This document shows, one piece after another, positions 1 to 57,719 of a stretch of DNA of 57,719 bases. The notes below the pieces were generated by a model. It was not told the DNA's origin and ran no database searches. It saw nothing but the letters and a program-made list of their open reading frames with translations. This stretch comes from a virus (lineage: Duplodnaviria > Caudoviricetes), in the IMG/VR virus record IMGVR_UViG_3300042922_000732, positions 1 to 57,719 of that record; one strand, 5' to 3'. The translations under genes were made by a program, and so were the position numbers. Within the stretch, counting starts at the first letter, position 1, and each line of letters opens with the position of its first letter.

Positions 1-172
1 ATAAATTATCAACCCCAACAACTTTTAAATCATTAGTTCTTGGTGCTACTGATAAATATCTTATTGAATTTCCCTTACTTCCTGCATATGGATCTACATA
101 TTTTACATTTTCCAAGCCTTTAATTTTCCTTAATTTATGCAACGGGTAATAAGTCGTCATCAATTTAGCATG
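1..172 (-). pseudogene. 3' part of interrupted host gene (probable FAD-dependent oxidoreductase); continues beyond window start
   Basis: Minus strand reads HAKLMTTYYPLHKLRKIKGLENVKYVDPYAGSKGNSIRYLSVAPRTNDLKVVGVDNL, open to the edge and in frame with the 5' part at the right end; the product name is recalled from similar clostridial proteins. Confidence 0.8.
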
Positions 173-197
173 TGCAATGTGAATAAAACTGCAACAT
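166..197. other. Left attachment junction (core TAGCATG plus phage arm GTGAA…AACTGCAACAT)
   Basis: Core 166-172; AACTGCAACAT (187-197) is the perfect inverse of ATGTTGCAGTT (57466-57476), and GTGAA (179-183) of TTCAC (57480-57484), giving a symmetric 52-bp attP. Confidence 0.9.
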
Positions 198-445
198 TTA
201 AAAAAGTATTTGAAACTACAGAAGAAAGTGTTTCTACATTATATAAAGAACTTCCAGAATACACTACAGCACAAAAAGTTTATAAAGTTAGAATGTTAAA
301 TAATCTCACTCAAAAAGAATTCGCTAATAAGAGTGGGGTTGGATATTCCACAATATGCAAATATGAGACTGGTTATAATACAAGCAAAAATAATATTAAA
401 AAAATATGTAATACATTTAACTTGCCATACGATTATTTTTACTAA
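170..445 (+). CDS. XRE-family HTH domain; likely the C-terminal domain of the integrase in the excised (attP) form
   Basis: VRMLNNLTQKEFANKSGVGYSTICKYETG is a classic XRE HTH; the ATG at 170 is within the att core, has no RBS, and is in the integrase frame after excision. Confidence 0.8.
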   Translation: MCNVNKTATFKKVFETTEESVSTLYKELPEYTTAQKVYKVRMLNNLTQKEFANKSGVGYSTICKYETGYNTSKNNIKKICNTFNLPYDYFY

Positions 446-487
446 TAAAAAACTGGAAATTCTTTTTTGAATTCCAGTTTTTTATTA
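443..487. terminator. Bidirectional intrinsic terminator
   Basis: AAAAAACTGGAA…TTCCAGTTTTTT hairpin between convergent ORFs. Confidence 0.8.
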
Positions 488-547
488 TCTTCTTTTTTTA
501 ATAATTAAAATTACGCGCTTAGTTTTTTTGTCACTCTCACCACTCAT
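485..547 (-). CDS. 20-aa basic micro-ORF MSGESDKKTKRVILIIKKRR (AimX-position candidate)
   Basis: Strong RBS AGGGGAG upstream; own promoter TTTACA-17-TATAAT at 624-652. Confidence 0.5.
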   Translation of the reverse strand: MSGESDKKTKRVILIIKKRR

Positions 548-623
548 TTGTTATTCGCTCCCCTTATATCTTCCTTTAATTTCCCTTAGGAGGTTGATGC
601 ATAAACGTTTCTTTATGTAAATT

Positions 624-652
624 ATTATATAAAGTTATTCAATATTTGTAAA
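624..652 (-). promoter_or_regulatory. Sigma-A-like promoter
   Basis: TTTACA (652-647), 17-bp spacer, TATAAT (629-624). Confidence 0.6.
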
Positions 653-658
653 ATAATA

Positions 659-696
659 AAAAGTTGCCAAAACTCTATTGAATTTTGGCAACTTTT
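659..696. terminator. Terminator downstream of the pro-peptide gene
   Basis: AAAAGTTGCCAAAA…TTTTGGCAACTTTT inverted repeat. Confidence 0.8.
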
Positions 697-751
697 CTAG
701 TTTTTTTTGCAACATTTTTAACATTTTTTCTTTTAATTTGCTTTGATTATT

Positions 752-910
752 TTACCATCCGCCTGGATCATTAGATTGTAGATGAATTTGATTAGTGCTA
801 GACATTGTGCCATTTTTAGCATTGTTAGTACTTGTAGTTTGACTTGATGCAAATGCAACATTTGTTAATAACATTGATGTTGCAACCACTGCTAATATAA
901 TTTTTTTCAT
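752..910 (-). CDS. Secreted RRNPP signalling pro-peptide, 52 aa (MKKIILAVVATSMLLTNVAFA-SSQTTSTNNAKNGTMSSTNQIHLQSNDPGGW)
   Basis: GGAGGT RBS; Sec signal peptide ending AFA; S/T/N-rich linker; C-terminal SNDPGGW; directly downstream of an HTH-TPR receptor; absent from the ORF track. Confidence 0.9.
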   Translation of the reverse strand: MKKIILAVVATSMLLTNVAFASSQTTSTNNAKNGTMSSTNQIHLQSNDPGGW

Positions 911-1022
911 GAATAATACCTCCATATAAGTTTACTTTTTTTACATTTCTTCTGTAAACATTGTAACATATTAACAGAATAAGACGATTAAAAAATATAT
1001 ATTTCCTAATTTTTTAATTTTA

Positions 1023-2324
1023 TCAAAGATTTTCTATTAATTTATCATTAAATAGATTGCTTTTCTCCTCATTTCGATATTTATAATACTTTACAAGTTT
1101 GGCATAAATCTTATTGTAATCCACCATTAAGCTTTTCTCTTTTTTAATCAATGCTTCTATATTGGATTCATCTTCTCTTTCCATATAAATTTCTAATAAA
1201 TCATTAAGTGTTTTTTTCGTAACCTCTGTATCGTCTGCCTTATTTTTTTCACATACTTCTAATGCTCTTAGAAGATATGACTCGTAATCTCCATTTATAG
1301 ATTTATAAACCAACGATGCAAAATATAAATTTTCCGCTAAATACCAATTTCCAGGATTATGTTCTAAAGATTTATCAATTGATATTTGTGCATCTTTATA
1401 TTTCCTTTGTTTTAAATAAACTTCTGCTACATTCCTGTATGTCATTGCTATCAAACCTTTATCATTTATTCGAGCTACTGGTTCCATTATTTCAATAAAT
1501 CTATTGGCAGCTTCTTCTAATTCATTGTTATCAAGCAGGCAATTTGCATATAGCATCTTAATGTCAAGTTTCCTTCTATCATTCAACTCAAATTCATCTG
1601 TAAGTTTTTTTAAATATTTTTTTGCTTTATCATATTTTTCGGTTTTCTTATATATTAATGCTTTGTTAAAATAAATTCGCTGAGAAATTTCAGAATTATT
1701 TAAGTCTTTATTTATTTTAAGCGCATAATTAAGCTGTTCTAATGCTGGTTCATAATTTTTCCGTGCAACATCGTTCCGAGATTTGCTAATATATAAATTA
1801 GCTTCACCATGTATGTTATTTGAATTAAGACATATTTTTAATCCGCAGCTACACATTTGATCACTTCTTGTATATTTTTCCTTAAAGTAATAAATAGTTG
1901 CAGCTAATTTATACATTTCAATTTTCATATCATCTTTAATATTATATTTTTTTATTAAATTTTCTCCATAATTAAGTTTCCCCTCTAAATCACACAGTTC
2001 TTTAATATCATTTAAGGCATGTATAATACTTTTTGAAAATACATTGTTAGCTTGACTATCTTCATCTTCAGTTAATTGCTCAGCTGTAATGTGATCAATC
2101 TTAATCTCTTTCATATCTATAACTTTATTAATGTTCTTTGTAATTCCAATAGCCAATTTATAGCTTAAATGCTTCTTGCCATTTTCAATCCGACTAATTA
2201 AAAATTTTGAACATACTCTGTCGGCAACATCATCTTGAGTTGCTCCAATGAGTATTCTAAAATTCTTTAATTTTAAATTTGGAGACATAATTTCATTATC
2301 AAACATTTTTTGCTTTCCCTTCAT
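1023..2324 (-). CDS. RRNPP-family peptide receptor / transcription regulator (N-terminal XRE HTH plus TPR repeats)
   Basis: LKNFRILIGATQDDVADRVCSKFLISRIENG HTH followed by multiple TPR-like helical repeats; adjacent pro-peptide gene. Confidence 0.88.
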   Translation of the reverse strand: MKGKQKMFDNEIMSPNLKLKNFRILIGATQDDVADRVCSKFLISRIENGKKHLSYKLAIGITKNINKVIDMKEIKIDHITAEQLTEDEDSQANNVFSKSIIHALNDIKELCDLEGKLNYGENLIKKYNIKDDMKIEMYKLAATIYYFKEKYTRSDQMCSCGLKICLNSNNIHGEANLYISKSRNDVARKNYEPALEQLNYALKINKDLNNSEISQRIYFNKALIYKKTEKYDKAKKYLKKLTDEFELNDRRKLDIKMLYANCLLDNNELEEAANRFIEIMEPVARINDKGLIAMTYRNVAEVYLKQRKYKDAQISIDKSLEHNPGNWYLAENLYFASLVYKSINGDYESYLLRALEVCEKNKADDTEVTKKTLNDLLEIYMEREDESNIEALIKKEKSLMVDYNKIYAKLVKYYKYRNEEKSNLFNDKLIENL

Positions 2325-2394
2325 TCTGGAATTTAATATATACCTAACAAAAGAAAAGCTTGTATATGTAAATTGGTTCTATATTATATAAATA

Positions 2395-4394: not shown

Positions 4395-5528
4395 TTAAAA
4401 TGGCATATCATCATCTTCTTCATATTCTATTTTTATTGTCTCCAATCTCGTTGTTATATTACTAATTAATATGTTTTGTCTAGTATTGCTTAACTTTTTA
4501 AAAAATGCATAAAACTCTCTAATTGTTTCAATCTTAATATCTTTTTTGGTAATATATGTATAACCACAATCAATGAAACAGGATATTAAATCATTATTAT
4601 TTTGAAGCACTTGTTCCAGTAAAGAATTTTTAATTACCGATTCCAGTGAATTAATTATTTTTTTAGGTTCATTTACAGTACTAAGTCCATTCTTTATAAA
4701 TTTTATATGCGAAATTAGTTCTTCTACAAAAGTTATATAAATAGATTTTTCATAATTAGTAAAATCTATTTCTACAAATGTATCTTCAGAAAGACATTGC
4801 ATAATTTCATAAAATGATTCAATTCGTTTCTTTGGATTGGCTACTATCATTTTATCAATTATATGTTGATATTTAAAATCAGAAACATCATAATCTTCTA
4901 ACAACTTATTAAATAACTTTCCAAGAAAATATATTTCGGTTTGATGATTATACTTTCTGTCATGTATTTCTTCTGGAAAATCACTCACTGGCCAATTAAG
5001 TAATATACTTGCTTCTTTCTCAGATTCAATTTCAATCTTTTTTCCAAATCCAAAATCTATTATTTTAACAACTCCATCATTGGTTATAAGTATATTTTCA
5101 TTTCTAATATCTCTATGTAATACTTTATTCTGCTCTAGATATTCAAACCCTTCGATTAACTGGATAAATATACTTTCAAAAACTTCATTACTTTGAAAAA
5201 ATAAATAGTTATCGATAGTTTCTCCTTCAATATTTTCCATAAGAATATATCCAGTAGTATGTTCGGGATATAAAAAATAATTATATATCCTCACAATATT
5301 TTTGTGTGATAATAAATACATTATTTTTATCTCATCTATAAATCTAGGAAAATACTCATTTTGCTTGTCAGCATTATAAGTAGAATATTTTTTACAAACA
5401 AAATTCATTCCTGTGATTTCATCTTTTACTAGAATAGCTTTCCCAGTGCCACCTCGTCCAACTTTCCTTTGATACGTGTACTCTTTTTGCCTTAAAAACT
5501 TTACTATATGACCTGGATTCATATCCAT
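4395..5528 (-). CDS. Hanks-type Ser/Thr protein kinase, putative anti-phage
   Basis: GRGGTG P-loop, VCKK, HRDIRNEN, IDFGFG; C-terminus EEDDDMPF. Confidence 0.9.
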   Translation of the reverse strand: MDMNPGHIVKFLRQKEYTYQRKVGRGGTGKAILVKDEITGMNFVCKKYSTYNADKQNEYFPRFIDEIKIMYLLSHKNIVRIYNYFLYPEHTTGYILMENIEGETIDNYLFFQSNEVFESIFIQLIEGFEYLEQNKVLHRDIRNENILITNDGVVKIIDFGFGKKIEIESEKEASILLNWPVSDFPEEIHDRKYNHQTEIYFLGKLFNKLLEDYDVSDFKYQHIIDKMIVANPKKRIESFYEIMQCLSEDTFVEIDFTNYEKSIYITFVEELISHIKFIKNGLSTVNEPKKIINSLESVIKNSLLEQVLQNNNDLISCFIDCGYTYITKKDIKIETIREFYAFFKKLSNTRQNILISNITTRLETIKIEYEEDDDMPF

Positions 5529-7192: not shown

Positions 7193-7528
7193 TTAAATTA
7201 ATATTTCTTTAAATTCAGTTAATATTGATTCTACACACTCCTTTGATAGTTCTCCCAGTTCTTTATCTTCAATATAACAATACTTGTCTATAAAATTATC
7301 AATTGCAATCATTTTTTCCTTATCCTCATAACATCTAGCTAATGTTGATACTAGCGCAACATACAACCCACCTTTTGTTCTTATTGAATCTGCAAGAACT
7401 ATTCCACCATAGGTAAACATTTTGATGTCAGAATATCTATTATCCGCAAGTGAAGTGAATTTTGCTCTTATTATATGTTCACATCTTATAGATAGATTTA
7501 CTAAATCCGAATTTGTCATAATATCCAT
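7193..7528 (-). CDS. Hypothetical protein
   Basis: AGGAG RBS; co-oriented within the cargo cluster. Confidence 0.7.
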   Translation of the reverse strand: MDIMTNSDLVNLSIRCEHIIRAKFTSLADNRYSDIKMFTYGGIVLADSIRTKGGLYVALVSTLARCYEDKEKMIAIDNFIDKYCYIEDKELGELSKECVESILTEFKEILI

Positions 7529-7544
7529 CTCCTTTTTTCATCTT

Positions 7545-7961
7545 CTAATCTTCTAACACAGTAATATTTACTTGTCTTAAATAATCATCGAAATCTCTGT
7601 AATGAGGAATACAAGCATTTATTAAATTCCCAATAGCATATTGCTTTCTTGTTATTGTCATATCAAATATTCTTGGATATGGAATAAAACTTCTAATACC
7701 ATCTATGTCTACTCCATAAAATGCCTCTACCATATTTCCATTATACATAAGAAGATATCTTTTCTTATATGGTCTATTGTTAAAAAAACTATGTGCCCAT
7801 TGTTCACCAAATTCCTCATCTCTTTCATCTGGCCAGCTTCTATCACTCAATATTGATATATTAATATTATTTCTATAAATACAAAGTCCAAAGTCATCAT
7901 CATAATTCCAATCACTGGGATAACTTTCCATTATCATTTGTATAAACTCATCATAATTCAT
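7545..7961 (-). CDS. Hypothetical protein
   Basis: AGGGGTG RBS; TATAAT upstream. Confidence 0.75.
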   Translation of the reverse strand: MNYDEFIQMIMESYPSDWNYDDDFGLCIYRNNINISILSDRSWPDERDEEFGEQWAHSFFNNRPYKKRYLLMYNGNMVEAFYGVDIDGIRSFIPYPRIFDMTITRKQYAIGNLINACIPHYRDFDDYLRQVNITVLED

Positions 7962-8138: not shown

Positions 8139-9851
8139 TTATTCTAACATTTTTGTATTCATGAAACTACGTACAAATTCTTTATTCTCATTATACTCGA
8201 ATTCATTAAGTAATTCATATTTGTTATTTTTAAGCTTAATTATATTATTAAATTTATACTTAGAATATTCTTTTTCTTCAAAGCCGATAGAAGATACAAT
8301 CAATTGTACTTCTTCACTAACTTCACTAAATAAATAATCAAATAGTTCTCTCTTCTTTTCTTTGTCTGTTTCAACATTATTAGGACTATCTAATACCAAT
8401 GGAAATCTTATTGCATTTGGATTAAATTCATCTCTAATTTTCAACAAATTAATATACCACATGATAGTTGCGATTGGCTTATTGCTACCTCCAGCTGTAA
8501 ATACATTACTTACATCTAATAAATTTTTGTTTTTTATTTCTTTTAATCCAAATCTTTCTTTATCTTTTATCATAAGCTCATAATATCTAGAATTTATTTT
8601 CTTTTTAGCTTCATCATAGTTCCTTTTCTCTTTATTTAACTCCTTCAATCTTTCATCTATGGTTAAAAGGTTTGATGTTATTGTTCCTAATTCCCGTATT
8701 ATAGTTTCCCTAAGTTCAATATATCCTTTATATTTTAAAATATCATTTATTTCTCTTGAGTTAATACTTATTTTTTCTTCGTATACATTTAATATTTCTA
8801 AAATATCTCTATACTTACTTTCTTCATTCTTAATCTTTTTCTCTATATTTATTAATATAAATTCTAAATCTTGTTTTAAAAATAATATGTCTTCTATCGT
8901 ATTGTATTTTTGGATACGAACTTCTAACTCATCCTCAATCCTTGATTTACAATATGGACAAATATGATTGATAATTTGTTTTACTTCTTTTTCTGTATCA
9001 TTGTTAAATACGTCTAATTCTTTAACATTGGAAATTAATTCTTCTTTTTGATTTCGAAGATTAATTAGGGATTTTTTTATTTTGTTTAAATTATCAATTA
9101 TCGTATTATATTCATCCTTGTATTGTTCTACTTCTATTTTCAGACTTTCTATATTCGTTGAATAATCAGTTCCTTTAATACTTTTATTAATTTTTTCGAG
9201 CATATTTTGATTAATAGTTCTCTCATCTTGATACTCTTTATGATTTCCTTTTAATTTTTCCAATTCTTTAATAAGTGTATAATATTCTCTAGTATACACA
9301 TTAAAATGATAATATAACACTTTGTCTTTATAATTAGAGTATTGTTGCAGATTCTTGAATGAACTAAAGTTTGTACCACGCATTTCATCTTGGTCTATAT
9401 AATTAAGTAAATAATTATATGCAGGTGGAGTTATTTCTAACTTATCATCTTTTTTATTTGGTAATTCTACTGCAAAATCAAATAATTCTTTTAAATATTC
9501 TGCAAGTTCTTCTCTAGTAATAGTTTTATATAATTCCTTAAAACCATCTTTTAAATATATCTTGAATAATCTTCCATGCCTAAATATATAGTATGATTTT
9601 TCTTTTACAATAAATTCTAAAATGAAAATTTTATTCTCCACATCCCATTGACCATCAAAAATACAATCTGCACCCAAAGAATGATAAATACTTTTTAGTA
9701 TAATAGATTTTCCTCTTTTAGTTCCATCTATTTCACTCGAAGTTATAATATTTCGTCCTTTAGTAAAGGGTATGACTTTAGCTTTCTTTTCATTTATTGA
9801 AAAAATATATAATTTAGTTATTATCAATCTATTCATAAACACCCTCTCCAT
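8139..9851 (-). CDS. lmuB: SMC-like ABC ATPase, Lamassu LmuB-like
   Basis: Walker A GTKRGKS, long coiled coils, CPYC zinc hook, signature-like AGGSN, Walker B LVLDSP. Confidence 0.8.
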   Translation of the reverse strand: MERVFMNRLIITKLYIFSINEKKAKVIPFTKGRNIITSSEIDGTKRGKSIILKSIYHSLGADCIFDGQWDVENKIFILEFIVKEKSYYIFRHGRLFKIYLKDGFKELYKTITREELAEYLKELFDFAVELPNKKDDKLEITPPAYNYLLNYIDQDEMRGTNFSSFKNLQQYSNYKDKVLYYHFNVYTREYYTLIKELEKLKGNHKEYQDERTINQNMLEKINKSIKGTDYSTNIESLKIEVEQYKDEYNTIIDNLNKIKKSLINLRNQKEELISNVKELDVFNNDTEKEVKQIINHICPYCKSRIEDELEVRIQKYNTIEDILFLKQDLEFILINIEKKIKNEESKYRDILEILNVYEEKISINSREINDILKYKGYIELRETIIRELGTITSNLLTIDERLKELNKEKRNYDEAKKKINSRYYELMIKDKERFGLKEIKNKNLLDVSNVFTAGGSNKPIATIMWYINLLKIRDEFNPNAIRFPLVLDSPNNVETDKEKKRELFDYLFSEVSEEVQLIVSSIGFEEKEYSKYKFNNIIKLKNNKYELLNEFEYNENKEFVRSFMNTKMLE

Positions 9852-10896
9852 ATCTTACTAAAACTAATATGACTAATGCTTTCTTATCATCTGTAGTATA
9901 TTCTAATGTAAATTCATTCGAAAATATTTCTATTAATATTTCTGTAGTTTCTTCGAAAGTTTTATCTAATTCTTCCAAATGTTCATTAATATATTGGGCA
10001 ATCATCTCTTCAATTTTTTTTAATTGCTTATTTATAGTTAATTCTTTTACTATTTTACCAAGAGCTATATTCATCTTTGTATTATCTCTAAATCCATCAT
10101 ATATTTCATTAATTTTTGTCTTGGCTTTTTTAGTTGATTCATCTGCGACATTAATATATTTTTTTATGATTGTATTAAATTCTGATTTTGTTATACCTTT
10201 CTTACTAATAACTTCTGAATAATCATTACATTGTAATTCATAGTTTGCCTTCACAGCAATTGTATCTGATAATGCTCTATATAACGTCACTACCTTTTTA
10301 GGTTCTTCTCCTGTAATTTTCATAAAGAAATTAACTGTTTGTCCAATTAAACTGTTGGATGGTTCAAACAAATCCATAGAAGTAAAAATATAGTACGAAC
10401 TATTTAAATCTATATCTTCTTCTATATTTAATTCTTTTTTTAGGTTTTCATTAACCAATTCCATACTTTTTTCATCTAAATTTACTAGTTCAAATTCCTT
10501 TACAGATGATTTTATTTTCTTATCTGCTGTTTTTAAAGGTGTATTTACCACTATGGCTATTTTACTTTTTAAATCGCCTTCTTCATTATCAATAATATTT
10601 TTCAACACATATACTTTTCCTAATATAGAATTTCCTTGAGCATCAGGACCACTTATTTTTTTTATTGAATATGGAGAGCCCTTGCTACTTGTTTTAATTT
10701 GATAAAACTCCATAGACTCATTTAAATGCAATTCTATATCACATACATAATCAAATACCATTACAAAATCATTTTCCGACTCGTATATGTTATATATCTT
10801 CTCCAAACCCCATAACATTTCATTCCTAAATCTATTTTTAGAACGTGAACCAGATAAATCACAAGGTAATTTCATATACAAACTATCTTTATCCAA
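9829..10896 (-). CDS. lmuA: Cap4/DUF4297-type endonuclease effector, Lamassu LmuA-like
   Basis: SGSRSKNRF…DYVCDIE…FYQIKT PD-(D/E)xK-like N-terminus; overlaps the SMC gene. Confidence 0.78.
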   Translation of the reverse strand: MDKDSLYMKLPCDLSGSRSKNRFRNEMLWGLEKIYNIYESENDFVMVFDYVCDIELHLNESMEFYQIKTSSKGSPYSIKKISGPDAQGNSILGKVYVLKNIIDNEEGDLKSKIAIVVNTPLKTADKKIKSSVKEFELVNLDEKSMELVNENLKKELNIEEDIDLNSSYYIFTSMDLFEPSNSLIGQTVNFFMKITGEEPKKVVTLYRALSDTIAVKANYELQCNDYSEVISKKGITKSEFNTIIKKYINVADESTKKAKTKINEIYDGFRDNTKMNIALGKIVKELTINKQLKKIEEMIAQYINEHLEELDKTFEETTEILIEIFSNEFTLEYTTDDKKALVILVLVRYGEGVYE

Positions 10897-11185: not shown

Positions 11186-12064
11186 TCATTTTATCCAAGC
11201 TCCACTTGAATCTACTCTATATCCATCTGGTGTAATTGTATTACATGCCATAGAACCACTTGAAGAGAAATAGTAACACTCTCCATCTATCCAAAGCCAT
11301 TCATTTTTAGCCATCTTGCATGACTCTTTAAGATAATACCACTTTCCACCATCTTGTATCCATGTACTTTCTCTTGCATATCCTTGACTATCAAAAGAAT
11401 ACCATTCTCCATCTATACTTTCCCATGAATCTTTATAATAATATTTTTCCTCTAAATTGGTGCAATACCACCACCCAGTACTATTTTTATTCCACCCTAA
11501 TTTCCATTCATTCTTAGCTGATGTTGAATATTCAAAATCTCCTGCCACAAATGAAGTTCCAGTAATACCACTAACTACTGCATTTACTAAATTTTCTTTA
11601 TTAGCTTCATATCTAACCATATCTGAATAAGTATCAATAAAGCATAGCTCTACAAGCATACTTGCACAAGGTGAATTTCTAATTACATAAAGGCTAGAAC
11701 CATCTTTAATCCCTCTGTTAACAAAACCTAATGAAACTATATTATTTAGTATATTTCTTGAACTTGTTAGCTCTCTAGCTCCATAAGTATATACTTCCGT
11801 TCCAACTCCTCCTCCTGCATTCAAATGAATAGATACAAACAAATCTGCATCACTTGGGCAGTTATTAACCCTAGTGCTTAAACTAGAGCTTACACTATTC
11901 GAACTATCTGGAGCAACTGCAATTACTATATTCCCTAAAGCTTCTAACTTACTTTTAACCATTTTTCCTATCTCTCTTGTACATTGTTGTTCTTTATATC
12001 CGTTTCCATCTGCACCTGTATCTGCTCCACTAAGACAATGACCATAATCTAATGCTATTTTCAT
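11186..12064 (-). CDS. Endolysin: N-acetylmuramoyl-L-alanine amidase (Amidase_3) plus cell-wall-binding repeats
   Basis: DYGH…E…SIHLNA…LVELCFID; C-terminal GxWYY repeats. Confidence 0.93.
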   Translation of the reverse strand: MKIALDYGHCLSGADTGADGNGYKEQQCTREIGKMVKSKLEALGNIVIAVAPDSSNSVSSSLSTRVNNCPSDADLFVSIHLNAGGGVGTEVYTYGARELTSSRNILNNIVSLGFVNRGIKDGSSLYVIRNSPCASMLVELCFIDTYSDMVRYEANKENLVNAVVSGITGTSFVAGDFEYSTSAKNEWKLGWNKNSTGWWYCTNLEEKYYYKDSWESIDGEWYSFDSQGYARESTWIQDGGKWYYLKESCKMAKNEWLWIDGECYYFSSSGSMACNTITPDGYRVDSSGAWIK

Positions 12065-12624: not shown

Positions 12625-13047
12625 TTAAGGCTGCTCTTTAATTTCTTTCTTTTCTCCATCCTTTAATTGTGCTAATGCATCCCTTAATTTATCTGGAACT
12701 GGTACACCTAAACTTATTGCATTTTCTAATAAACTTAGTGCTTCATTTGCTATATAGAAATATGCTACAAGTGTTCTAAATACCCATGTTTCAGAATTTA
12801 ATAATCTGTCCAATAAAACTGCCACAATTAGAACTTCAAATATTACTGCTTTTCTGGCAATACCTCTAAGTCCTACATCAGAACTTAGTTTCTTATTTAC
12901 ATACCCCCTTAATACCCCTGTAGCATAATCTAAAATCATGCATGTTATTAATACTTCTAATGGTATATCCCATGAACCAAATAACCATGTGAAGCCTGTT
13001 CCTAATATCGCTATTAATATTTTTGAATACTTTAATACATTTTCCAT
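12625..13047 (-). CDS. Phage holin (toxin secretion/phage lysis holin family)
   Basis: LDYATGVL…LSSDVGLRGIARK…NEALSLLENA…GVPVP motifs; TM segments. Confidence 0.92.
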   Translation of the reverse strand: MENVLKYSKILIAILGTGFTWLFGSWDIPLEVLITCMILDYATGVLRGYVNKKLSSDVGLRGIARKAVIFEVLIVAVLLDRLLNSETWVFRTLVAYFYIANEALSLLENAISLGVPVPDKLRDALAQLKDGEKKEIKEQP

Positions 13048-49783: not shown

Positions 49784-50548
49784 TTAAGAATTTAAAAATT
49801 CTTCAACTAAATCCATATAATCTTTAGCTGCATTACATCTTTTTGAACATTCTAAAATTGGCTTATTCTCAAAAGAACTTTCATCAATCTTTACTGTTCT
49901 CCTAATATGTGTCTTAAACATTGGATAACCTGTATTATTATTTAAATAATCCTCTCCCTGAATGTTCACTTGATTTTTAGCAAATTGAGTAATAAAACAG
50001 CCTTTTAACTTAAGATCTGGATTCATTTCTTTGGCATAATCTATTTGCTCTATTAATTCCTTCATCCCATCAAACGTAAATTGATCTATCTTTAATGGTA
50101 TTAATATTTCATTACTTGCTACCATCGCATTTATAACTGAAACATTAATATCTGGTGGATTATCTATCACAGCATAATCATAATTATCTTTTACATTGTC
50201 TAAAGCTTTTCTAAGTATATATTGTTGTGGTCTGCTAGAATCCATAATTACGCTAAGATTTGCTTTAGCTAGTCCCATATTTGCAGGAATTACATCTAAA
50301 TTTTTATATCTTGTCTCAGCAATAACATCTTCTATATCAATATTTCTATTAATCATAATATCTGCAATGCTTAATTCATCTTCATTATGCAATCCAAATA
50401 ATTTAGTTGTATTTCCTTGTTTATCATTATCTATAAGTAGCACTTTTTTGCCATATACTGTGGACAAAATGTGAGCAATGTTAATACTACTCATTGTTTT
50501 TGCAACTCCACCCTTAAGATTAATAATACTTATAACTTTCATACTCAT
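49784..50548 (-). CDS. parA: ParA/Soj ATPase
   Basis: KGGVAKT, IDNDKQGN, IDNPP. Confidence 0.93.
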   Translation of the reverse strand: MSMKVISIINLKGGVAKTMSSINIAHILSTVYGKKVLLIDNDKQGNTTKLFGLHNEDELSIADIMINRNIDIEDVIAETRYKNLDVIPANMGLAKANLSVIMDSSRPQQYILRKALDNVKDNYDYAVIDNPPDINVSVINAMVASNEILIPLKIDQFTFDGMKELIEQIDYAKEMNPDLKLKGCFITQFAKNQVNIQGEDYLNNNTGYPMFKTHIRRTVKIDESSFENKPILECSKRCNAAKDYMDLVEEFLNS

Positions 50549-50724
50549 AATTTCAAACCTCTTCTCTCATTATTTTTTACTTACAATGTAAAATTCTTCT
50601 CTTTATTCTGTTTATATTGTCCATACTGTTCATAAAAGCTTGTTTCTTACCTTCATTCTCCAATTGTCTCTTTTTAGCTATGTCTCTAATCGTTCTTTGT
50701 GCTAATTCATGTGGTGTCATTTTT

Positions 50725-51159
50725 CTACATTCCATCAAACACACCTTCTTTAACAATTGTTTTAGACTTTTCTAAATACTTAGTTAATTTTTCTGATGCT
50801 TCTTGCCATCCATAGCAAACCTCAACATAATACCCTTGTTCAATTAAATCCTTGATCCATTTTTTCTGCTTATTAGTGGGTTTATTATCTCCAACTTTCA
50901 TTTCTATATAAGCACCATGATAACCACCCCTAGGTACTGGCAATGCTAAATCCGGTACTCCTGCTTTAACTCCTTGTCTCTTAAGTGAAACAGCTTCTTT
51001 TTTATCACGCCTTCCACCGTTTGGCACATGATATAACAAATCTAATTCTGGAAACTCTTGAGCAGCCCACATTGCCCACTGAAATAAACATATCTGTTCT
51101 TGAGATTCTTTTGCTGAAAACATATAATTCCTCCTATTCTCTTTTGACTTCATTTGCAA
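50725..51159 (-). CDS. VRR-NUC nuclease
   Basis: HVPNGG…GVKAGVPDL…IEMK. Confidence 0.9.
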   Translation of the reverse strand: MQMKSKENRRNYMFSAKESQEQICLFQWAMWAAQEFPELDLLYHVPNGGRRDKKEAVSLKRQGVKAGVPDLALPVPRGGYHGAYIEMKVGDNKPTNKQKKWIKDLIEQGYYVEVCYGWQEASEKLTKYLEKSKTIVKEGVFDGM

Positions 51160-51886
51160 TTTTTATCATTGTATATTTTAAATATCCATAACCAGTAAAT
51201 TTATTTACACCTTTAAATATGGAATTTTTATCTATGTAATAGCCTTTCTTTGCTTTTGGAACTGATTTATACCATTCTCTTGTGCTAATAATTATTTTAT
51301 TTGGTTCAGGTATTAATAGATTTTTGCTGCAGTTCCATCTCTTACTTTGCAGTTCTTTGCTTTTACATGTTTGTTTTATTAAATAAGATGCTAATTCTGC
51401 ATACTGTCCGGTCTCATCTAAAGGGAAAACTTTAACTCTTCCCTTCGTCCAACATTTTTGAAGTATCTTGGTGTCTATATGATTTATAACCAGATGATGA
51501 TGCCTGGCACCTTTACTCCCAACTTCCATTACATGTATATACTTTAATTCCTTGCCTTGTTTTTTATATTCTTTTCTAAGTTCTCTAAGAGCTTTATCTA
51601 TATCTTCTCTCATTTGCTCTTTTGTATCTGGTCTTTCATCTTTTCTATAATCAAATACTGTATGAAAATCTCCTTCTCCATAATTTGCATTTATTCTCTG
51701 TCTTAATTTTTTCTCTGCTAATTTTAAATTTATCTCTTGTTGATCTTCTGTAGTTTTATTTACAACTTCTCCTCTTTTTACCCCTTTAGCTTTATATCTA
51801 AGGGTATAGTATTTTTCCACCTCTACTGTTTTACCAGCATTAGTTATACTCATAATGTATGGCATATCTATAACCTCACTTGTCAT
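51134..51886 (-). CDS. HUH-type (rolling-circle-like) replication protein
   Basis: YIHVME…HHHLVI (HUH) and LASYLIK (catalytic Tyr), RWNCSKNL. Confidence 0.75.
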   Translation of the reverse strand: MTSEVIDMPYIMSITNAGKTVEVEKYYTLRYKAKGVKRGEVVNKTTEDQQEINLKLAEKKLRQRINANYGEGDFHTVFDYRKDERPDTKEQMREDIDKALRELRKEYKKQGKELKYIHVMEVGSKGARHHHLVINHIDTKILQKCWTKGRVKVFPLDETGQYAELASYLIKQTCKSKELQSKRWNCSKNLLIPEPNKIIISTREWYKSVPKAKKGYYIDKNSIFKGVNKFTGYGYLKYTMIKIANEVKRE

Positions 51887-52219: not shown

Positions 52220-52223
52220 AGCA

Positions 52224-53959: not shown

Positions 53960-54199
53960 TCATAATATCCTGTGTTCTTCTGTTACCTTTTCTATCCATC
54001 TATCCAAAGCTCTTCTATCTATAGATGTTCTAGCTCCAACTTTGAAGAAAGGAAAGTCTGTTTTTGGTTTCTCAACAAGCTCTCTTAACTTTTCATGTCC
54101 AATGCCCAGGTAATTGGCTGCTTCTTGGATTGAAAAAGTTATCTTTTCAGGTTTTTCAGTTTTTAGCGCTGCCAATATTTCTTTCAATAATTCTTCCAT
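53960..54199 (-). CDS. Excisionase-like HTH_17 DNA-binding protein
   Basis: FSIQEAANYLGIG…FPFFKVGAR..IDRRALDRW. Confidence 0.85.
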   Translation of the reverse strand: MEELLKEILAALKTEKPEKITFSIQEAANYLGIGHEKLRELVEKPKTDFPFFKVGARTSIDRRALDRWIEKVTEEHRIL

Positions 54200-54684: not shown

Positions 54685-54834
54685 CTATTTTTGTTTTTCC
54701 AAAGAGTTAATTAATTCTTTTAATTCTTCCAGATTTAATTTTTTTAAAGTTATCTTTGCAAGTACTCTTGCATAAGCACTTTCTAAAATATCTTTTCCTT
54801 CTTTTGTTCCCGGTAATACCAAAGATACTTTCAT
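54685..54834 (-). CDS. 49-aa hypothetical protein
   Basis: AGGGGGAG RBS; MKVSLVLPGTKEGKDILESAYARVLAK…. Confidence 0.6.
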   Translation of the reverse strand: MKVSLVLPGTKEGKDILESAYARVLAKITLKKLNLEELKELINSLEKQK

Positions 54835-54912
54835 TGTGCTCCCCCCTATTCATATATCCATAATATGTTTTACCCTTCGCTTGTGTTACTTTGAATTTTC
54901 TTCTTTTTAATT

Positions 54913-55131
54913 TTAAGAACAACTCTTTTCATCATTAACCTCCTCGATCATTTCGTTAATTGAAATACCTAAACCTTTTGCAATTTTTACTGCAGTATCA
55001 AAACGAGGATTTGGATTATTCCCTTCTACAATGTCGTACAATGTCGCATACCCAACTTTGCATTTTTTTGCTGCAGAATTAATTGTCATGTTCCTTTTTT
55101 TAATAGCTTGTACAATTACTGTTATATTCAC
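54913..55131 (-). CDS. Cro-like XRE regulator
   Basis: HTH; divergent from repressor. Confidence 0.85.
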   Translation of the reverse strand: MNITVIVQAIKKRNMTINSAAKKCKVGYATLYDIVEGNNPNPRFDTAVKIAKGLGISINEMIEEVNDEKSCS

Positions 55132-55143
55132 TTCGCACCCCCC

Positions 55144-55361
55144 TATCGGTTTACCGTGATTATGTTTAAATTATATATCGGTAATTTGATAGTGACAAAG
55201 TCTATATTTTGCCTTTACAACTTGTTTTTTAATTAAAATCATACTTTTTCTTAAAAAATCTAAAAATTGCTTTTATTGTCTTATCACTTAACCGATATTA
55301 TTTTTAATATTTGTCGATATACCGATAATTGTTTTTCTTGAAAGTTATCGGAAAACTGATA
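55144..55361. promoter_or_regulatory. Five 16-bp operators, consensus TATCGG-n4-CCGATA
   Basis: Imperfect palindromes at 55144, 55176, 55282, 55312, 55346. Confidence 0.8.
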
Positions 55362-55402
55362 TAATTATATTTAAATAAAAATAAATTATAATTTATTAAA
55401 GG

Positions 55403-55792
55403 ATGGTTAATATAATGGAAATTAGTACATTAGGTATGAATATTAAGACTTTAAGAGAGAAAAAGGGATGGAGCGTAAACAAATTAAAAGAAATTAGTTC
55501 TGTTGGATATGCAACTCTACATGACATAGAAAGTGGCAAAAGTCAAACAATGAATTCTAAAAGCCTAGAAAAAGTTGCTAGAGCACTTAATACTACAAGT
55601 GATGATCTATTAAATATAGAATCTATAGAGTTTGTAGTTGAAGATATCGCAGAAACTATAGATGCTATTTTTGAATCAGAGGAATTAAAATTAGATGGAA
55701 TAAATTTAAGTGAATACGAAACTGAATTTTTGAAAGACTTCTTCGCCGCAGGAGTAGAGAAAATAAGAAAGAAAAGAGTTGAACAAAAATAA
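55403..55792 (+). CDS. CI-like XRE repressor without an S24 peptidase domain
   Basis: IKTLREKKGWSVNKL…YATLHDIESG; TAATG-coupled to the integrase. Confidence 0.87.
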   Translation: MVNIMEISTLGMNIKTLREKKGWSVNKLKEISSVGYATLHDIESGKSQTMNSKSLEKVARALNTTSDDLLNIESIEFVVEDIAETIDAIFESEELKLDGINLSEYETEFLKDFFAAGVEKIRKKRVEQK

Positions 55793-57600
55793 TGAACAAA
55801 AGAATTGCGATATATAGTAGAAAATCAAAGTTTACTGGAAAAGGCGATTCGATAGAAAACCAAATTGAAATGTGTAAGGATTACATAGAAAAAAATATAG
55901 GCACAAATACTGAAATAACTGTATATGAGGATGAAGGTTTTAGTGGCGGAAATCTTGATAGACCTAAGTTTAAAAAATTAATGTCTGATATTAAAAATAA
56001 AAAAAACGATATCTTAATATGTTATAGATTAGATCGTATTTCTAGAAATGTTGCAGATTTCTCTTCAACATTAGAATTGCTACAAGCTAATAATTGTGAT
56101 TTTATATCAATAAAAGAACAATTTGACACTAGTACGCCTATGGGAAGAGCAATGATATATATTGCTAGTGTATTTGCTCAATTAGAGCGTGAGACAATAG
56201 CAGAGCGCGTTAAAGATAATATGCTTGAAATGGCAAAAAACGGTCGATGGACTGGCGGAAAAATCCCACTCGGTTTTCATTCTGAAAAAATAAAAGTAAT
56301 CGACGAACAAGGATTAACAAGAGAAACTCCACAATTAATTGTTAATGATGAAGAAATACAATTTGTTAAGTTTCTATATGAAAAATATCTAGAATTAGGA
56401 AGTTTGCATAAATTAGAGGTATATATAACTCAAAATCAAATTAAATCTAGAAATGGCATTCTATATGAAAAATCTTCACTTAAAATAATTTTGCAGAACC
56501 CTATATACGTAAAGGCTAATGAGAATGTTGTAGAATATCTAAAAAATAATAATTGGTCCATTTACGGTGTTGCTGATAATATACATTCTTTATTGACTTA
56601 CAATAAGACAGAACAAACCAAGAAAAATGGAAAGTATACTAAACAAAATAAGCCTCTAGACGAAAGATTCGCAGCTGTAAGCAACATAAAAGGTTTTATT
56701 GATCCACAATTATGGTTAAATGTTCAATATCAGTTTGATAAAAACAGAGATAAATTCCCACGCCTAGGGAAAACACATAATGCTCTTTTGGTTGGAAAGC
56801 TAAAGTGTGGAAAATGTAAAGAATATATGTTAATTCAACACGGCAAAGTATCTGCTGTTACTGGGAAAAAATTATTTTATTATACATGTTCACTTAAAAG
56901 AAAATCTCACAGATCATTATGCAATAATGATAACGCTAAAGCTGATAAAATTGAAAATCTAGTTTTATTATCTCTAAAAAGTTTAGCCTATAAACAAGAT
57001 GAATATTTAAATAATATAAAAAAAGGTTACAAAGAAATGACAAGCCAAAAAGGAATTAAAATAGAATTTCTTTCTCTTAAGCAATCATTAAACGAGAAAA
57101 AAAATCAAATTGATAATTTAGTAAATAAACTTTCCTTTGCTCCCGAAATATCAGATATATTATTAGAAAAAATAAAAACCTTAAAATCAGAATGTATTGA
57201 TATAGAAAGCAAAATACATTCATTAAAATCTAATGAAGACAAAGCAAAATTAGAGTTATTAAATATAGAAATTATTAAACAATTATTAGATAAATGCGCA
57301 AATATAGAACATCTTACTAGAGACGAGCAAAAAGAAATTATTGACACTTTAATTGATGTTGTTTATTGGTATGGCAATGGAGATGATGAAGGCATAAAAA
57401 TTAAATTCATAGGCACAAATGAGGAAGATAGCACTATTGAATATACTGAAGCTGAACTGCAATCGATGTTGCAGTTCAGTTCACCTAGCATGGCCCGTAT
57501 CGAGAAGAATGATATTTTCCGCAAATTCTTTCAAGGCATATTGCTGGCAAACCTTTGTATTAAGCTTGTCATAATTTATATCTTCCTTTGGGACCTTTAA
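55792..57600 (+). CDS. Large serine recombinase (integrase), prophage form; last 35 aa come from the antisense strand of the host gene
   Basis: YSRKS, DEGFSG, YRLDRISR, recombinase domain, CGKC…C…C zinc ribbon, coiled coil; ORF crosses the att core at codon 567. Confidence 0.95.
   Translation: MNKRIAIYSRKSKFTGKGDSIENQIEMCKDYIEKNIGTNTEITVYEDEGFSGGNLDRPKFKKLMSDIKNKKNDILICYRLDRISRNVADFSSTLELLQANNCDFISIKEQFDTSTPMGRAMIYIASVFAQLERETIAERVKDNMLEMAKNGRWTGGKIPLGFHSEKIKVIDEQGLTRETPQLIVNDEEIQFVKFLYEKYLELGSLHKLEVYITQNQIKSRNGILYEKSSLKIILQNPIYVKANENVVEYLKNNNWSIYGVADNIHSLLTYNKTEQTKKNGKYTKQNKPLDERFAAVSNIKGFIDPQLWLNVQYQFDKNRDKFPRLGKTHNALLVGKLKCGKCKEYMLIQHGKVSAVTGKKLFYYTCSLKRKSHRSLCNNDNAKADKIENLVLLSLKSLAYKQDEYLNNIKKGYKEMTSQKGIKIEFLSLKQSLNEKKNQIDNLVNKLSFAPEISDILLEKIKTLKSECIDIESKIHSLKSNEDKAKLELLNIEIIKQLLDKCANIEHLTRDEQKEIIDTLIDVVYWYGNGDDEGIKIKFIGTNEEDSTIEYTEAELQSMLQFSSPSMARIEKNDIFRKFFQGILLANLCIKLVIIYIFLWDL
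57466..57492. other. Right attachment junction (phage arm plus core), located inside the integrase ORF
   Basis: ATGTTGCAGTT…TTCAC…TAGCATG; mirrors the left arm. Confidence 0.9.
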
Positions 57601-57719
57601 CACAACAACACCTTTAGTATCTAATTCGTTTCTAATTTCTTCTGACAAACTTTCCTTTGCTAATTTACATGATCCTGAAAATGCTCCTAATATATCATCA
57701 CCTCTTTCACCTTGAATAT
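57481..57719 (-). pseudogene. 5' part of the interrupted host gene, truncated by a prophage-derived stop
   Basis: Minus strand reads IQGERGDDILGAFSGSCKLAKESL…AENIILLDTGHAR*; TGA at 57481-57483 lies just inside the prophage. Confidence 0.8.

What the first reader, a model, noticed from the sequence alone, without database searches (positions are those of the whole stretch)
1..57719. attP splits the integrase gene: excision swaps its C-terminus for an XRE-HTH domain
Seen: the integrase ORF runs through the right att core (ATG at 57490-57492 is Met567) and, in the prophage, ends with 35 aa read from the host antisense strand (ARIEK…FFQGILLANLCIKLVIIYIFLWDL, strongly hydrophobic). The left core ATG (170-172) is in the same frame as an RBS-less XRE-HTH ORF ending at 445. 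Recombination therefore gives …QFSSPSM-CNVNKTATF…PYDYFY, a 657-aa integrase-HTH fusion on the circle. Known: att sites inside repressor genes (integration-dependent immunity in mycobacteriophages). Inference: this is a recombination-state switch on the integrase itself. The hydrophobic tail could be a degron or membrane tether in the lysogen, and the HTH could set directionality or regulate transcription after excision.
Basis: partly seen in the sequence, partly recalled or inferred. Interest (0 to 1): 0.92.

Follow-up and report, generated by a model that had tools for sequence, protein, structure and literature searches.

The report
Integrase gene split by its attP
This Clostridium prophage carries its attachment site inside its own serine-integrase gene, so the free circular phage encodes an integrase with a DNA-binding (HTH) tail that is cut off when the phage integrates, and a whole family of related phages shares this layout.

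Summary
Observation confirmed. The large serine integrase gene (55792-57600) crosses the right att core (TAGCATG, 57486-57492). The same core at 166-172 is in frame with a start-less, RBS-less XRE-HTH reading frame ending at 445. Joining them gives a 657-aa ORF with a terminator directly behind it. Public contigs in 4 of 4 runs laid show the empty attB joined exactly as predicted.

The layout is conserved. Of 120 listed homologues, 20 are natural integrase-HTH fusions of 643-663 aa. The rest stop 0-50 residues after the same junction motif. In 7 prophage pairs the frame runs across att. One 39-kb viral contig is the circularly permuted attP form of a provirus.

The junction lies in a disordered linker.

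The hydrophobic 35-aa tail is incidental. 50 of 64 relatives in the same orientation have only 3-4 residues.

What the HTH does is not shown. I favour an excised-state-only regulatory or integration-assisting role.

Precedents are Mx8 IntP/IntX, SSV1 and serine-integrase phage Perkons (2026); none has an HTH tail. This scan has noted the same design in other integrase lineages. I rate it a new variant of a known kind.

The parts
1..165 (-). Left host flank: the part just after the split of a ~425-aa FAD-dependent oxidoreductase gene (distantly TrmFO/MnmG-like), running from ...KLMTTYYPL... off the window's left edge
   Evidence: The minus-strand frame is open. There is a weak GIDA match. The homologous C-terminal part in L035 matches TrmFO/MnmG models at E 4e-9.
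166..172 (+). att core copy at attL (TAGCATG)
   Evidence: Identical to 57486-57492. attB contigs join the two flanks through a single copy.
173..445 (+). Detached 3' part of the integrase gene: about 35 linker residues plus an XRE-type HTH domain (90 codons and a stop). It has no start codon or RBS of its own.
   Evidence: HTH_3 at E 2e-11. It is 66% and 61% identical to the tails of the fused integrases P0096 and P0087. No SD-like motif lies before any in-frame start. No promoter-like site was found upstream on the + strand.
187..195 (+). P' arm motif AACTGCAAC, 16-24 bp from the crossover centre; mirror image of 57468-57476
   Evidence: Dyad analysis. Relatives keep the mirror pair, and L015 has changed both arms to GTTGTCTTT and AAAGACAAC.
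443..486 (+). Intrinsic terminator hairpin directly after the HTH stop; it would terminate the cI-int-HTH operon only on the circular form
   Evidence: RNA fold -19.7 kcal/mol, z -8.3, with 0 of 200 shuffles as good, followed by a U run.
53960..54199 (-). Excisionase-like small HTH protein in the early lytic operon; a candidate directionality factor (inference only)
   Evidence: HTH_17 at E 3e-8 and Tn916-Xis at E 4e-8.
54913..55131 (-). cro-like XRE gene, divergent from cI
   Evidence: HTH_3 at E 8e-9. A promoter-like site lies at 55198-55170 on the minus strand, matching 11 of 12.
55403..55792 (+). cI-like XRE repressor gene. Its stop overlaps the integrase start (TAATG), so the two form one operon.
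   Evidence: HTH_26 and HTH_3 at E 1e-7. A promoter-like site lies at 55338-55365, matching 11 of 12 with an extended -10. Repeated TATCGG-N6-TGATA sites are present.
55792..57492 (+). Phage-encoded part of the large serine integrase (residues 1-567): resolvase, recombinase and zinc-ribbon domains with coiled coil, then the first part of the linker
   Evidence: Resolvase at E 7e-42, Recombinase at 8e-10, Zn_ribbon_recom at 2e-10. The closest homologue is 76% identical (P0003), and the closest natural fusion is 70% identical (P0009).
57452..57479 (+). 12-bp-stem palindrome or hairpin in the P arm. Its right arm is the P-arm motif GTTGCAGTT (57468-57476).
   Evidence: RNA fold -21.2 kcal/mol, z -3.65. 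An upstream mirror copy is present in 11 of 19 distinct P arms by my reading.
57486..57492 (+). att core copy at attR (TAGCATG). The dyad centre lies between T 57491 and G 57492.
57493..57600 (+). Host-encoded 35-codon tail plus stop of the prophage-form integrase, read from the antisense of the host gene
   Evidence: GRAVY is +0.90, against -0.56 for residues 1-567. The tail is not conserved in length among relatives.
57493..57719 (-). Right host flank: the part of the same FAD-dependent oxidoreductase gene just before the split, entering from the window's right edge and ending ...LLDTGHA
   Evidence: The homologous 263-aa N-terminal part in L115 ends ...LLDTGHA. attB contigs confirm the join.

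Best explanation
The window is a ~57.3-kb tailed Clostridium prophage (166-57492). It sits inside a host FAD-dependent oxidoreductase gene.

What the sequence shows:
- The attP crossover (dyad centre on the TG of TAGCATG) lies inside the phage's own large-serine-integrase gene. It falls in the codons of a flexible linker between the zinc-ribbon/coiled-coil domain and a C-terminal XRE-type HTH domain.
- The gene therefore has two forms.
- On the circular or replicating genome, the cI-int operon encodes a 657-aa Int-HTH protein and ends at a strong terminator.
- In the prophage, the same operon encodes Int residues 1-567 followed by whatever the host antisense strand supplies (35 residues here, 3-4 in most relatives). 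It has lost its terminator.
- The HTH coding part lies 57 kb away at attL, without promoter, start codon or ribosome-binding site.

Inferred:
- The HTH is made only as part of the integrase, and only when the phage is not integrated.
- The host-encoded tail has no selected function.
- The peptide motif conserved around the junction (..LQFSSPSM / C.VNKTATF..) is held by DNA-level constraints of the attP half-sites, not by protein function.

My best guess for the role of the HTH (about 0.35): it is an excised-state-only DNA-binding module that regulates phage transcription during establishment of lysogeny or after excision. This would be analogous in logic to integration-dependent immunity.

The close second (about 0.3): it helps the integrative attP x attB reaction as an extra DNA anchor.
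For: Geometry and frames:
-.
- The empty attB is joined exactly at the core in contigs of 4 of 4 runs laid. In run X1 an attR-spanning contig and an attB contig coexist.

Natural fusions:
- 20 of the 120 listed homologues (58-70% identical) have an 85-97-aa HTH tail after the junction motif. 90 stop 0-50 aa after it. 10 lack the motif.

Split arrangement elsewhere:
- A full-length tail fragment was found in 5 of 5 genomes. It is in frame with the integrase across a short shared core in all 5.
- Of 5 further genomes, 3 have intact tails, 1 has a decayed tail and 1 has none.
- Of 5 viral records, 2 have the tail at the far end of the provirus, 1 has the gene fused, 1 has no match and 1 has only a partial generic HTH match.

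Natural attP form:
- The 39,108-bp record G009 is a circular permutation of provirus G010. G010's two ends abut inside a 663-aa ORF (670-aa open frame).
- L010 also has the fused gene between a cI/ImmA module and a lysis/tail module.

Linker:
- In the AF2 model of P0009, pLDDT is below 50 for residues 561-587. The junction is at residue 568, and the HTH helices span 600-657.

attP arms:
- Mirror motifs lie 16-24 bp from the centre and are changed on both sides in L015.

Signals around the HTH coding part:
- A terminator lies directly after the HTH stop.
- No SD-like motif is present in 8 of 8 prophage tails.

Selection on the tail:
- pN is below pS in most tail pairs. dN/dS is roughly 0.2-0.45 among the closer pairs, and dS is saturated.

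Fold:
- The tail is a repressor-type HTH. The nearest solved relatives are PezA, the ICEBs1 Xre-family regulator and C.BclI.
Against: - No attP junction of this very phage was seen. The 4 runs laid are contigs only and showed attR and attB but no attP.
- No expression data exist for either isoform.
- The function of the HTH is untested.
- I found no candidate operator near att. The cI/cro-type sites TATCGG-N6-TGATA are confined to the switch region.
- The tail's recognition helix resembles those of cI and cro only weakly.
- One relative (L041/L133) has a truncated integrase and a tail with an internal stop. Another (L043) has no tail. The arrangement can therefore be lost.
- The fused gene also occurs in the middle of a 112-kb record classed as provirus (L010), which I could not explain.
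- dS is saturated, so the selection test is weak.
Confidence: 0.8

Rival explanations
1. The hydrophobic host-encoded tail is itself functional in the lysogen, as a degron or membrane tether that keeps the integrase inactive. The HTH sets recombination directionality after excision.
For: The 35-aa tail is hydrophobic: GRAVY is +0.90, against -0.56 for the enzyme. Similar 35-50-aa tails occur in 6 of 64 same-orientation relatives, because the host gene is conserved.
Against: In 50 of 64 same-orientation relatives the tail is only 3-4 residues. In opposite-orientation integrants the tails are unrelated, 1-46 residues long. A feature that depends on where the host antisense strand happens to have a stop is unlikely to be selected. 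There is no evidence for a directionality role of the HTH.
Confidence: 0.08
2. The HTH tail is an accessory DNA-binding domain of the recombinase itself. It anchors Int-HTH to DNA beside attP or attB and raises the efficiency or specificity of integration. It is dispensable for excision, so its loss in the prophage does no harm.
For: The tail is conserved together with the integrase and the shared attB, while the upstream repressors differ. The window has a cI of 129 aa. L015 and L010 have a different XRE plus ImmA. The two tail subgroups (GYSS.CKYE and MT.YRWE recognition helices) coincide with the two attP-arm variants. An extra mirror copy of the arm motif lies 28-36 bp out in 11 of 19 P arms.
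Against: There are only two clades, so the coincidence is a single event. The extra copy is missing in 8 of 19 P arms. Known large serine integrases need only the recombinase and zinc-ribbon domains to bind att sites (established knowledge, recalled). No site was identified.
Confidence: 0.3
3. The HTH fragment is also expressed on its own in the lysogen, from an internal start or by read-through. Integration then only uncouples two proteins and does not switch the HTH off.
For: In-frame ATG or GTG codons exist near the junction in most copies, for example ATG 137 and 170 and GTG 179 in the window. Short ORFs of 88-96 aa matching the whole tail profile are annotated in public data.
Against: No SD-like motif lies 4-18 nt upstream of any in-frame start in 8 of 8 prophage copies. 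L114 and L115 have no ATG at the junction. No promoter-like site lies upstream on that strand in the window. The flanking host gene runs in the opposite direction in the window.
Confidence: 0.1
4. The position of attP is a neutral accident. A tolerant linker happened to acquire the att site, and the presence or absence of the HTH has no consequence in either state.
For: The crossover lies in a disordered linker. The catalytic and att-binding domains stay intact in the prophage form. The tail can be lost (L043) or decay (L133).
Against: The tail keeps an open frame and a recognisable HTH in 9 of 10 prophage copies examined across integrases only 55-90% identical. The 9 are the window, L112-L116 and L130-L132; the tenth is L133. 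pN is below pS. A dedicated terminator follows the tail. Notes of this scan report the same layout in unrelated serine-integrase lineages (unchecked).
Confidence: 0.12

Closest known systems
Phage Perkons (Psychrobacillus) serine integrase ORF165 (BMC Microbiol 2026, PMC13245101; passages read)
   Same: It is a serine-type integrase with the att core inside its own ORF near the 3' end. Experimental lysogens carry a chimeric integrase ORF: residues 1-520 of the 552-aa protein followed by host floA sequence.
   Different: In the passages I read, only the last ~32 residues are exchanged. No DNA-binding domain is described as being lost, and no family-wide conservation or state-switch idea is discussed. 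Here a folded 90-residue linker-plus-HTH module is removed, and the design is conserved.
Myxophage Mx8 IntP / IntX (review PMC6070905, passage read, citing Tojo 1996 and Magrini 1999, which I did not read)
   Same: attP lies within the int coding sequence. Integration creates a new 3' end of int, and the altered integrase stays active with changed properties.
   Different: Mx8 Int is a tyrosine integrase (recalled). No separate folded domain is swapped. The window's enzyme is a serine recombinase.
Integration-dependent immunity of mycobacteriophages (Broussard et al. 2013, recalled; listing and abstract start of PMC3694055 seen)
   Same: The integration state changes the C-terminus of a phage protein because attP is inside a gene, so the phage senses whether it is integrated.
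   Different: There attP is inside the repressor gene, truncation removes a degradation tag, and the integrases are tyrosine type (recalled). Here the cI-like gene (55403-55792) is intact and the split gene is the integrase.
SSV1-type archaeal integrases
   Same: attP lies inside the integrase gene, which is partitioned on integration.
   Different: These are tyrosine recombinases, and the partition separates essential parts of the enzyme (recalled). Here all catalytic and att-binding domains remain in one piece.
Canonical large serine integrases (TP901-1, SPbeta SprA/YokA, Bxb1, phiC31)
   Same: Same domain order and a short dyad-symmetric attP. The nearest solved relatives by sequence are the TP901-1 catalytic domain (E 2e-21) and SPbeta YokA (E 5e-7).
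   Different: To my knowledge (recalled) they have attP outside the gene and no C-terminal XRE HTH. More distant relatives in my loci end 10-15 residues after the zinc-ribbon hairpin.

Membership tests
Large serine recombinase / serine integrase | N-terminal resolvase catalytic domain with the nucleophilic serine motif | tested here: met
   PF00239 at E 7e-42 over residues 5-153. Y7, S8, R9, K10 and S11 are invariant in 53 sequences.
Large serine recombinase / serine integrase | Recombinase domain followed by a zinc-ribbon domain with four cysteines and an embedded coiled coil | tested here: met
   PF07508 and PF13408 match. C338, C341, C365 and C376 are invariant. Long helices span 383-501 in the model.
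Large serine recombinase / serine integrase | Short attP and attB with dyad symmetry about a central dinucleotide; attL and attR are hybrids | tested here: met
   Dyad with 21 of 32 positions complementary, centred on TG. attB was seen in public contigs. The crossover dinucleotide itself cannot be fixed within the 7-bp identity.
Large serine recombinase / serine integrase | Catalyses attP x attB alone and needs a directionality factor for attL x attR | not testable with these tools
   Only a candidate Xis-like gene at 53960-54199.
Integration-dependent immunity system (mycobacteriophage type) | attP located inside the repressor gene, so that integration truncates the repressor | tested here: not met
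   The cI-like gene at 55403-55792 is intact and lies upstream of int. The att core is in int.
Integration-dependent immunity system (mycobacteriophage type) | C-terminal degradation tag removed by integration | tested here: inconclusive
   The removed part is a folded HTH, not a short tag. Whether either C-terminus affects stability is unknown.
Mx8 / SSV1-type 'attP within int' integrases | Tyrosine recombinase catalytic domain | tested here: not met
   Only serine-recombinase domains were found.
Mx8 / SSV1-type 'attP within int' integrases | attP inside the integrase ORF, so that integration alters or splits the protein | tested here: met
XRE / Cro-C1 type HTH domain (the tail) | Match to the HTH_3 profile and a helical-bundle fold | tested here: met
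   PF01381 at E 2e-11. Helices at 600-610, 615-622, 626-633 and 640-650 in the model of P0009. PDB relatives are PezA and the ICEBs1 Xre regulator.
XRE / Cro-C1 type HTH domain (the tail) | Sequence-specific operator binding | not testable with these tools
   No target was identified.

The most novel reading that the evidence does not exclude
The integrase is a topological sensor. Because attP sits between its enzyme core and an HTH domain, the phage makes an Int-HTH protein only while it is extrachromosomal. This fused form has a job the prophage form cannot do. It may repress or activate phage promoters during the lysis-lysogeny decision and after excision, or it may gate the direction or efficiency of recombination. 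If so, a widespread class of serine integrases, including those mined from prophages for genome engineering, has been studied and used as the wrong, truncated isoform.
Probability: 0.4. Interest if true: 0.8.

Novelty: new variant of a known kind. Interest (0 to 1): 0.62.

Why it matters
Serine integrases are major genome-engineering tools. They are now mined by the thousand from integrated elements, with the coding sequence called on the integrated genome (Durrant et al. 2022; method passages read).

For this family such mining returns a truncated enzyme with a junk tail. The native integrating enzyme is about 55 residues longer than this window's prophage form and about 85-90 residues longer than the commonest ~570-aa forms, and it carries an extra DNA-binding domain.

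If the tail affects integration efficiency, specificity or regulation, that is directly useful. It would also add a new layer to the directionality problem of these enzymes.

Biologically it would be a simple way for a phage to know whether it is integrated. This parallels integration-dependent immunity, but is built into the recombinase itself.

It can be tested with standard attP x attB and attL x attR assays and a junction stop-codon mutant.

Tried and rejected
I used the search for related loci and the genome search instead, as the tool's message advised.
- **search_dna_similar** with the integrase region against INPHARED phages gave no match.
- **Profile search of the tail** against 1.84 billion representatives. 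It gave 36,190 hits at E up to 0.001. The top of the list was dominated by multi-HTH repeat proteins, so it gave no usable census of fused versus orphan tails. A few 88-96-aa full-profile hits and ~616-671-aa proteins with a C-terminal match were seen, but I did not check them.
- **Word-based search of the tail among longer proteins**. It found only 2 fused proteins, and its sensitivity is limited.
- **Complex prediction** of the integrase core (1-560) with the HTH (585-658) of P0009. The result was no verdict (score 0.00), so it says nothing either way.
- **Idea that the tail shares operators with cI/cro.** There is weak local similarity of the recognition helices. The switch-region sites do not occur near att, and the upstream repressors of relatives are unrelated. 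I dropped the idea as unsupported.
- **The P-arm hairpin as a conserved RNA element.** It is present in only 11 of 19 distinct P arms, so I did not pursue it with a covariance test.
- **No attP-type contig in the 4 runs laid**. Contigs drop rare forms, so this is no evidence of absence.
- **Literature searches for a published description of a serine integrase with an HTH tail split by attP**. I found none. They did find Perkons, where attP is inside a serine integrase gene without an HTH.
- **Phage WO preprint**. The passages shown describe split versus fused HTH_XRE genes, not a fusion to the recombinase.
Supplementary Table 1 of Durrant et al., with its integrase-att predictions, could include this family, and I could not see it.
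- **Not every ORF of the window was scanned.** In the ORFs scanned I saw no toxin or drug-resistance gene.

Full report
**What is in the window**

The window is the whole record held for this 'genome'. It consists of a tailed prophage plus about 170 and 230 bases of host flank.

Most phage genes are on the minus strand:
- endolysin at 11186-12064 and holin at 12625-13047;
- tail fibre and structural genes;
- Rep and ParA-like genes at 49784-51886;
- small early genes, including an excisionase-like HTH_17 protein at 53960-54199 and a cro-like XRE at 54913-55131.

Diverging from cro is a two-gene operon on the plus strand. It holds a cI-like XRE gene (55403-55792) and a large serine integrase (55792-57600), whose start overlaps the cI stop. 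Promoter-like sites matching 11 of 12 face each way in the 270-bp switch region. Repeated TATCGG-N6-TGATA sites lie over them.

**Check of the observation**

- The integrase is 602 aa, with Resolvase, Recombinase and Zn_ribbon_recom domains. Codon 567 is the ATG at 57490-57492.
- From 57493 onward the frame is read from the antisense strand of a host gene. That gene's own frame is open on the minus strand in both flanks.
- The heptamer TAGCATG occurs at 57486-57492 and at 166-172.
- The ATG inside the left copy is in frame with the ORF 137-445, which is an XRE HTH (HTH_3, E 2e-11).
- Joined by coordinates in a script, the phage-side pieces give a 657-codon ORF with a single terminal stop. The host-side pieces give 132 codons without a stop.
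- A strong hairpin with a U run follows the HTH stop: -19.7 kcal/mol, z -8.3. The right host flank showed no terminator-like site after the prophage-form stop; the only site in the scanned range (56771-56755, minus strand) lies inside the integrase gene.

**Direct evidence for attB**

Contigs of four public runs, from four studies with coded ids, were laid on 56900-57719.
- All four runs contain a contig that matches 57486-57719 and carries, directly before 57486, the letters of window 136-165.
- That is the uninterrupted host gene, joined through one copy of the core.
- Two runs (X1 and X2) also contain contigs that cross attR.
- X1 may be the sample the window came from. The other three runs are independent.
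- No attP-type contig was seen. For contigs this says nothing about absence.

**The host gene**

In a relative (G002) the two halves are a 263-aa N-terminal part ending ...LLDTGHA and a 165-aa C-terminal part beginning KLMTT.
- The N-terminal part has a Rossmann FAD-binding motif.
- The C-terminal part is distantly TrmFO/MnmG-like, at E 4e-9 and far below the curated cut-offs.
- The gene lies next to a PyrK-like FAD/NAD-binding protein.

I call it an uncharacterised FAD-dependent oxidoreductase.

**attP anatomy**

- The rebuilt attP has its best dyad centred between the T and G at the 3' end of the core. 21 of 32 positions are complementary. Shuffles gave 14.4 +/- 1.2, with a largest value of 20 in 500.
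- The strongest mirror elements are GTTGCAGTT (57468-57476) and AACTGCAAC (187-195). Each lies 16-24 bp from the centre.
- Relatives keep this pair. The L015 group has GTTGTCTTT and AAAGACAAC instead, a change on both arms.
- These motifs sit in the codons for ..MLQF.. and ..NKTATF...
- The AlphaFold2 model of the natural fusion P0009 has pLDDT below 50 for residues 561-587. The junction is at residue 568, and the HTH helices span 600-657.
- A peptide motif conserved in a disordered linker, overlying mirror-symmetric DNA, is best explained by selection on the att site. This is an inference.

**Is the fusion real in nature?**

The word-indexed protein search scored 8,000 candidates. 7,984 had E up to 0.001, and the best 120 were listed. 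I classified those 120 by script:
- 20 carry an 85-97-residue tail with an HTH after the junction motif. Total lengths are 643-663 aa, and precomputed Pfam lists PF01381 or PF12844 for most.
- 64 end 0-50 residues after the motif with tails of the window's type.
- 26 end 1-46 residues after it with a second type of tail (CK...).
- 10 lack the motif.

Near-identical integrases occur in both forms. Examples are P0008 (603 aa) versus P0009 (658 aa), and L007/L008 versus L010.

The window's own tail is 66% and 61% identical to the tails of the fused proteins P0096 and P0087.

**Split arrangement in other genomes**

- First set of 5 genomes: searching with the window's tail found a full-length fragment in 5 of 5.
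  - In all five the fragment is in frame with the integrase across a shared GCATG-type core. Its upstream flank is the other half of the same host gene.
  - In four genomes the fragment lies tens of kb from the integrase or on a different numbered contig. I did not confirm that the contig numbers correspond to the named contigs.
- G002 shows the phage inserted at the same host codons but in the opposite orientation. This explains the second tail type.
- Second set of 5 genomes:
  - 3 have intact full-profile tails. I checked the frame for G014. In G015 the contig ends at the junction. I did not check G013.
  - 1 (G011) has a tail with an internal TAG, and its integrase is truncated just after the zinc ribbon.
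  - 1 (G012) has no tail.
- Of 5 viral records, 2 proviruses have the tail at the end opposite the integrase, 1 has no match, 1 has only a generic partial match, and 1 (G009) has the gene fused.
- BLAST of provirus G010 against G009 shows that G009 is a circular permutation of it. G010's last bases (the tail) and first bases (the integrase 3' end) abut at G009 27173-27183. G009's own ends map to adjacent G010 positions. That is a natural attP form.
- More distant integrases in my loci (below about 50% identity) end 10-15 residues after the zinc-ribbon hairpin and lack the linker and motif. The design therefore marks one clade here.

**Is the tail made on its own in the lysogen?**

- In 8 of 8 prophage copies, no GGAGG, GGAG, GAGG or AGGA motif lies 4-18 nt before any in-frame ATG, GTG or TTG. 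Two copies have no ATG at the junction at all.
- The window has no promoter-like site upstream on that strand.
- The flanking host gene points the other way.

I infer that the HTH is silent in the lysogen.

Across copies the frame stays open in 9 of 10 prophage copies examined, and pN is below pS. dN/dS is roughly 0.2-0.45 among closer pairs, with dS saturated. The tail is therefore under selection, presumably as part of the fusion.

**The host-encoded tail**

The 35-residue tail is hydrophobic, with GRAVY +0.90. Among 64 same-orientation relatives, however, 50 have only 3-4 residues. The tail is whatever the antisense strand of the host gene provides. I reject a selected function for it.

**What the HTH does**

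The function is not shown. The facts are:
- It is a repressor-type HTH. The nearest solved relatives are PezA, the ICEBs1 Xre regulator and C.BclI.
- It is conserved along with the integrase and the common attB, whereas the upstream immunity genes differ between relatives.
- Its two sequence subgroups coincide with the two attP-arm variants. This is a single event and not statistics.
- I found no operator-like site near att.
- A complex prediction of the tail with the integrase core gave no verdict.

My estimates for the role are:

| Role | Estimate |
|---|---|
| Excised-state-only regulator | about 0.35 |
| Accessory DNA anchor for integration | about 0.3 |
| Directionality control | about 0.15 |
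| No consequence | about 0.12 |

**Comparison with what is known**

- Review passages state that Mx8 has attP within int and that integration creates a new 3' end without inactivating the enzyme.
- Phage Perkons (2026) has an att core inside a serine-integrase ORF and a chimeric integrase-floA ORF in experimental lysogens. This is a published serine-integrase precedent for 'attP in int', but it has no detachable domain.
- Integration-dependent immunity places attP in the repressor gene (recalled; listing).
- Four literature searches found no description of a serine integrase whose HTH domain is removed by integration.
- The method passages of the large integrase-mining study show that coding sequences were called on integrated genomes. 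This family would therefore be captured in its truncated form.
- Earlier notes of this scan report the same design in other serine-integrase lineages, at comM, tRNA genes and yabG. I did not check those loci.

**Verdict**

- The tail-function idea is rejected.
- The HTH function remains open.
- I rate it a new variant of a known kind, of real but not exceptional interest.

Noticed in passing
window 8139-10896 (-): A Lamassu anti-phage defence pair carried by the prophage. LmuA (9829-10896) matches at E 1e-116 and has a Cap4 nuclease domain. LmuB (8139-9851) matches at E 2e-201. The small ORFs just downstream (7193-7961) are unassigned.
   Followed up: partly
window 4395-5528 (-): A Ser/Thr protein kinase gene in the accessory region. 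It matches PD-T4-6 and mad6 defence-kinase models at E 1e-27 to 9e-37.
   Followed up: partly
window 752-2324 (-): A 433-aa HTH-plus-TPR regulator (1023-2324) is followed by a 57-aa ORF (752-925). By eye this ORF has a signal-peptide-like N-terminus. The layout resembles RNPP/arbitrium-type peptide signalling. It sits next to the attP-proximal end of the genome. The peptide reading is my inference.
   Followed up: no
L035 with L115 (genome G002): A related phage uses the same host codons (..GHA|KLM..) but is inserted in the opposite orientation. Its integrase tail is read from the host sense strand out of frame. 26 of the 120 listed homologues have this second tail type.
   Followed up: partly
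window 57452-57479: A perfect 12-bp-stem palindrome in the integrase coding sequence just upstream of the core (-21.2 kcal/mol, z -3.65). An upstream mirror copy of the arm motif is present in 11 of 19 distinct P arms, and it changes along with the arm in the L015 group. Whether it is a DNA site or an RNA hairpin is undecided.
   Followed up: partly
L010 (record G016, 112,343 bp, classed provirus): The fused integrase-HTH gene lies mid-record between a cI/ImmA module and a lysis/tail module. Partial similar copies of the flanking regions sit at both record ends, and a second, unrelated serine recombinase is at the far end. It could be a tandem or nested array or a mis-join. This is unresolved.
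   Followed up: partly
L041 with L133 (genome G011): A decaying example. The integrase stops a few residues after the zinc ribbon, and the far-end HTH fragment has an internal TAG in place of a conserved Trp codon.
   Followed up: partly
window 49784-51886 (-): A ParA-like ATPase and a Rep (ORF2/G2P-type) protein are encoded in the phage. This raises the possibility of a plasmid-like extrachromosomal state in which the fused integrase would be the standing form.
   Followed up: no
window 55144-55361: Three to four copies of a TATCGG-N6-TGATA site overlap the divergent promoter-like sites of the cI/cro switch. None occurs near either att end.
   Followed up: partly
window 56900-57719 in run X1: In one soil-metagenome run an attR-spanning contig (depth 18.6) and an empty-attB contig (depth 50.6) coexist. 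This could be mixed strains or spontaneous excision, and contigs cannot tell which.
   Followed up: no
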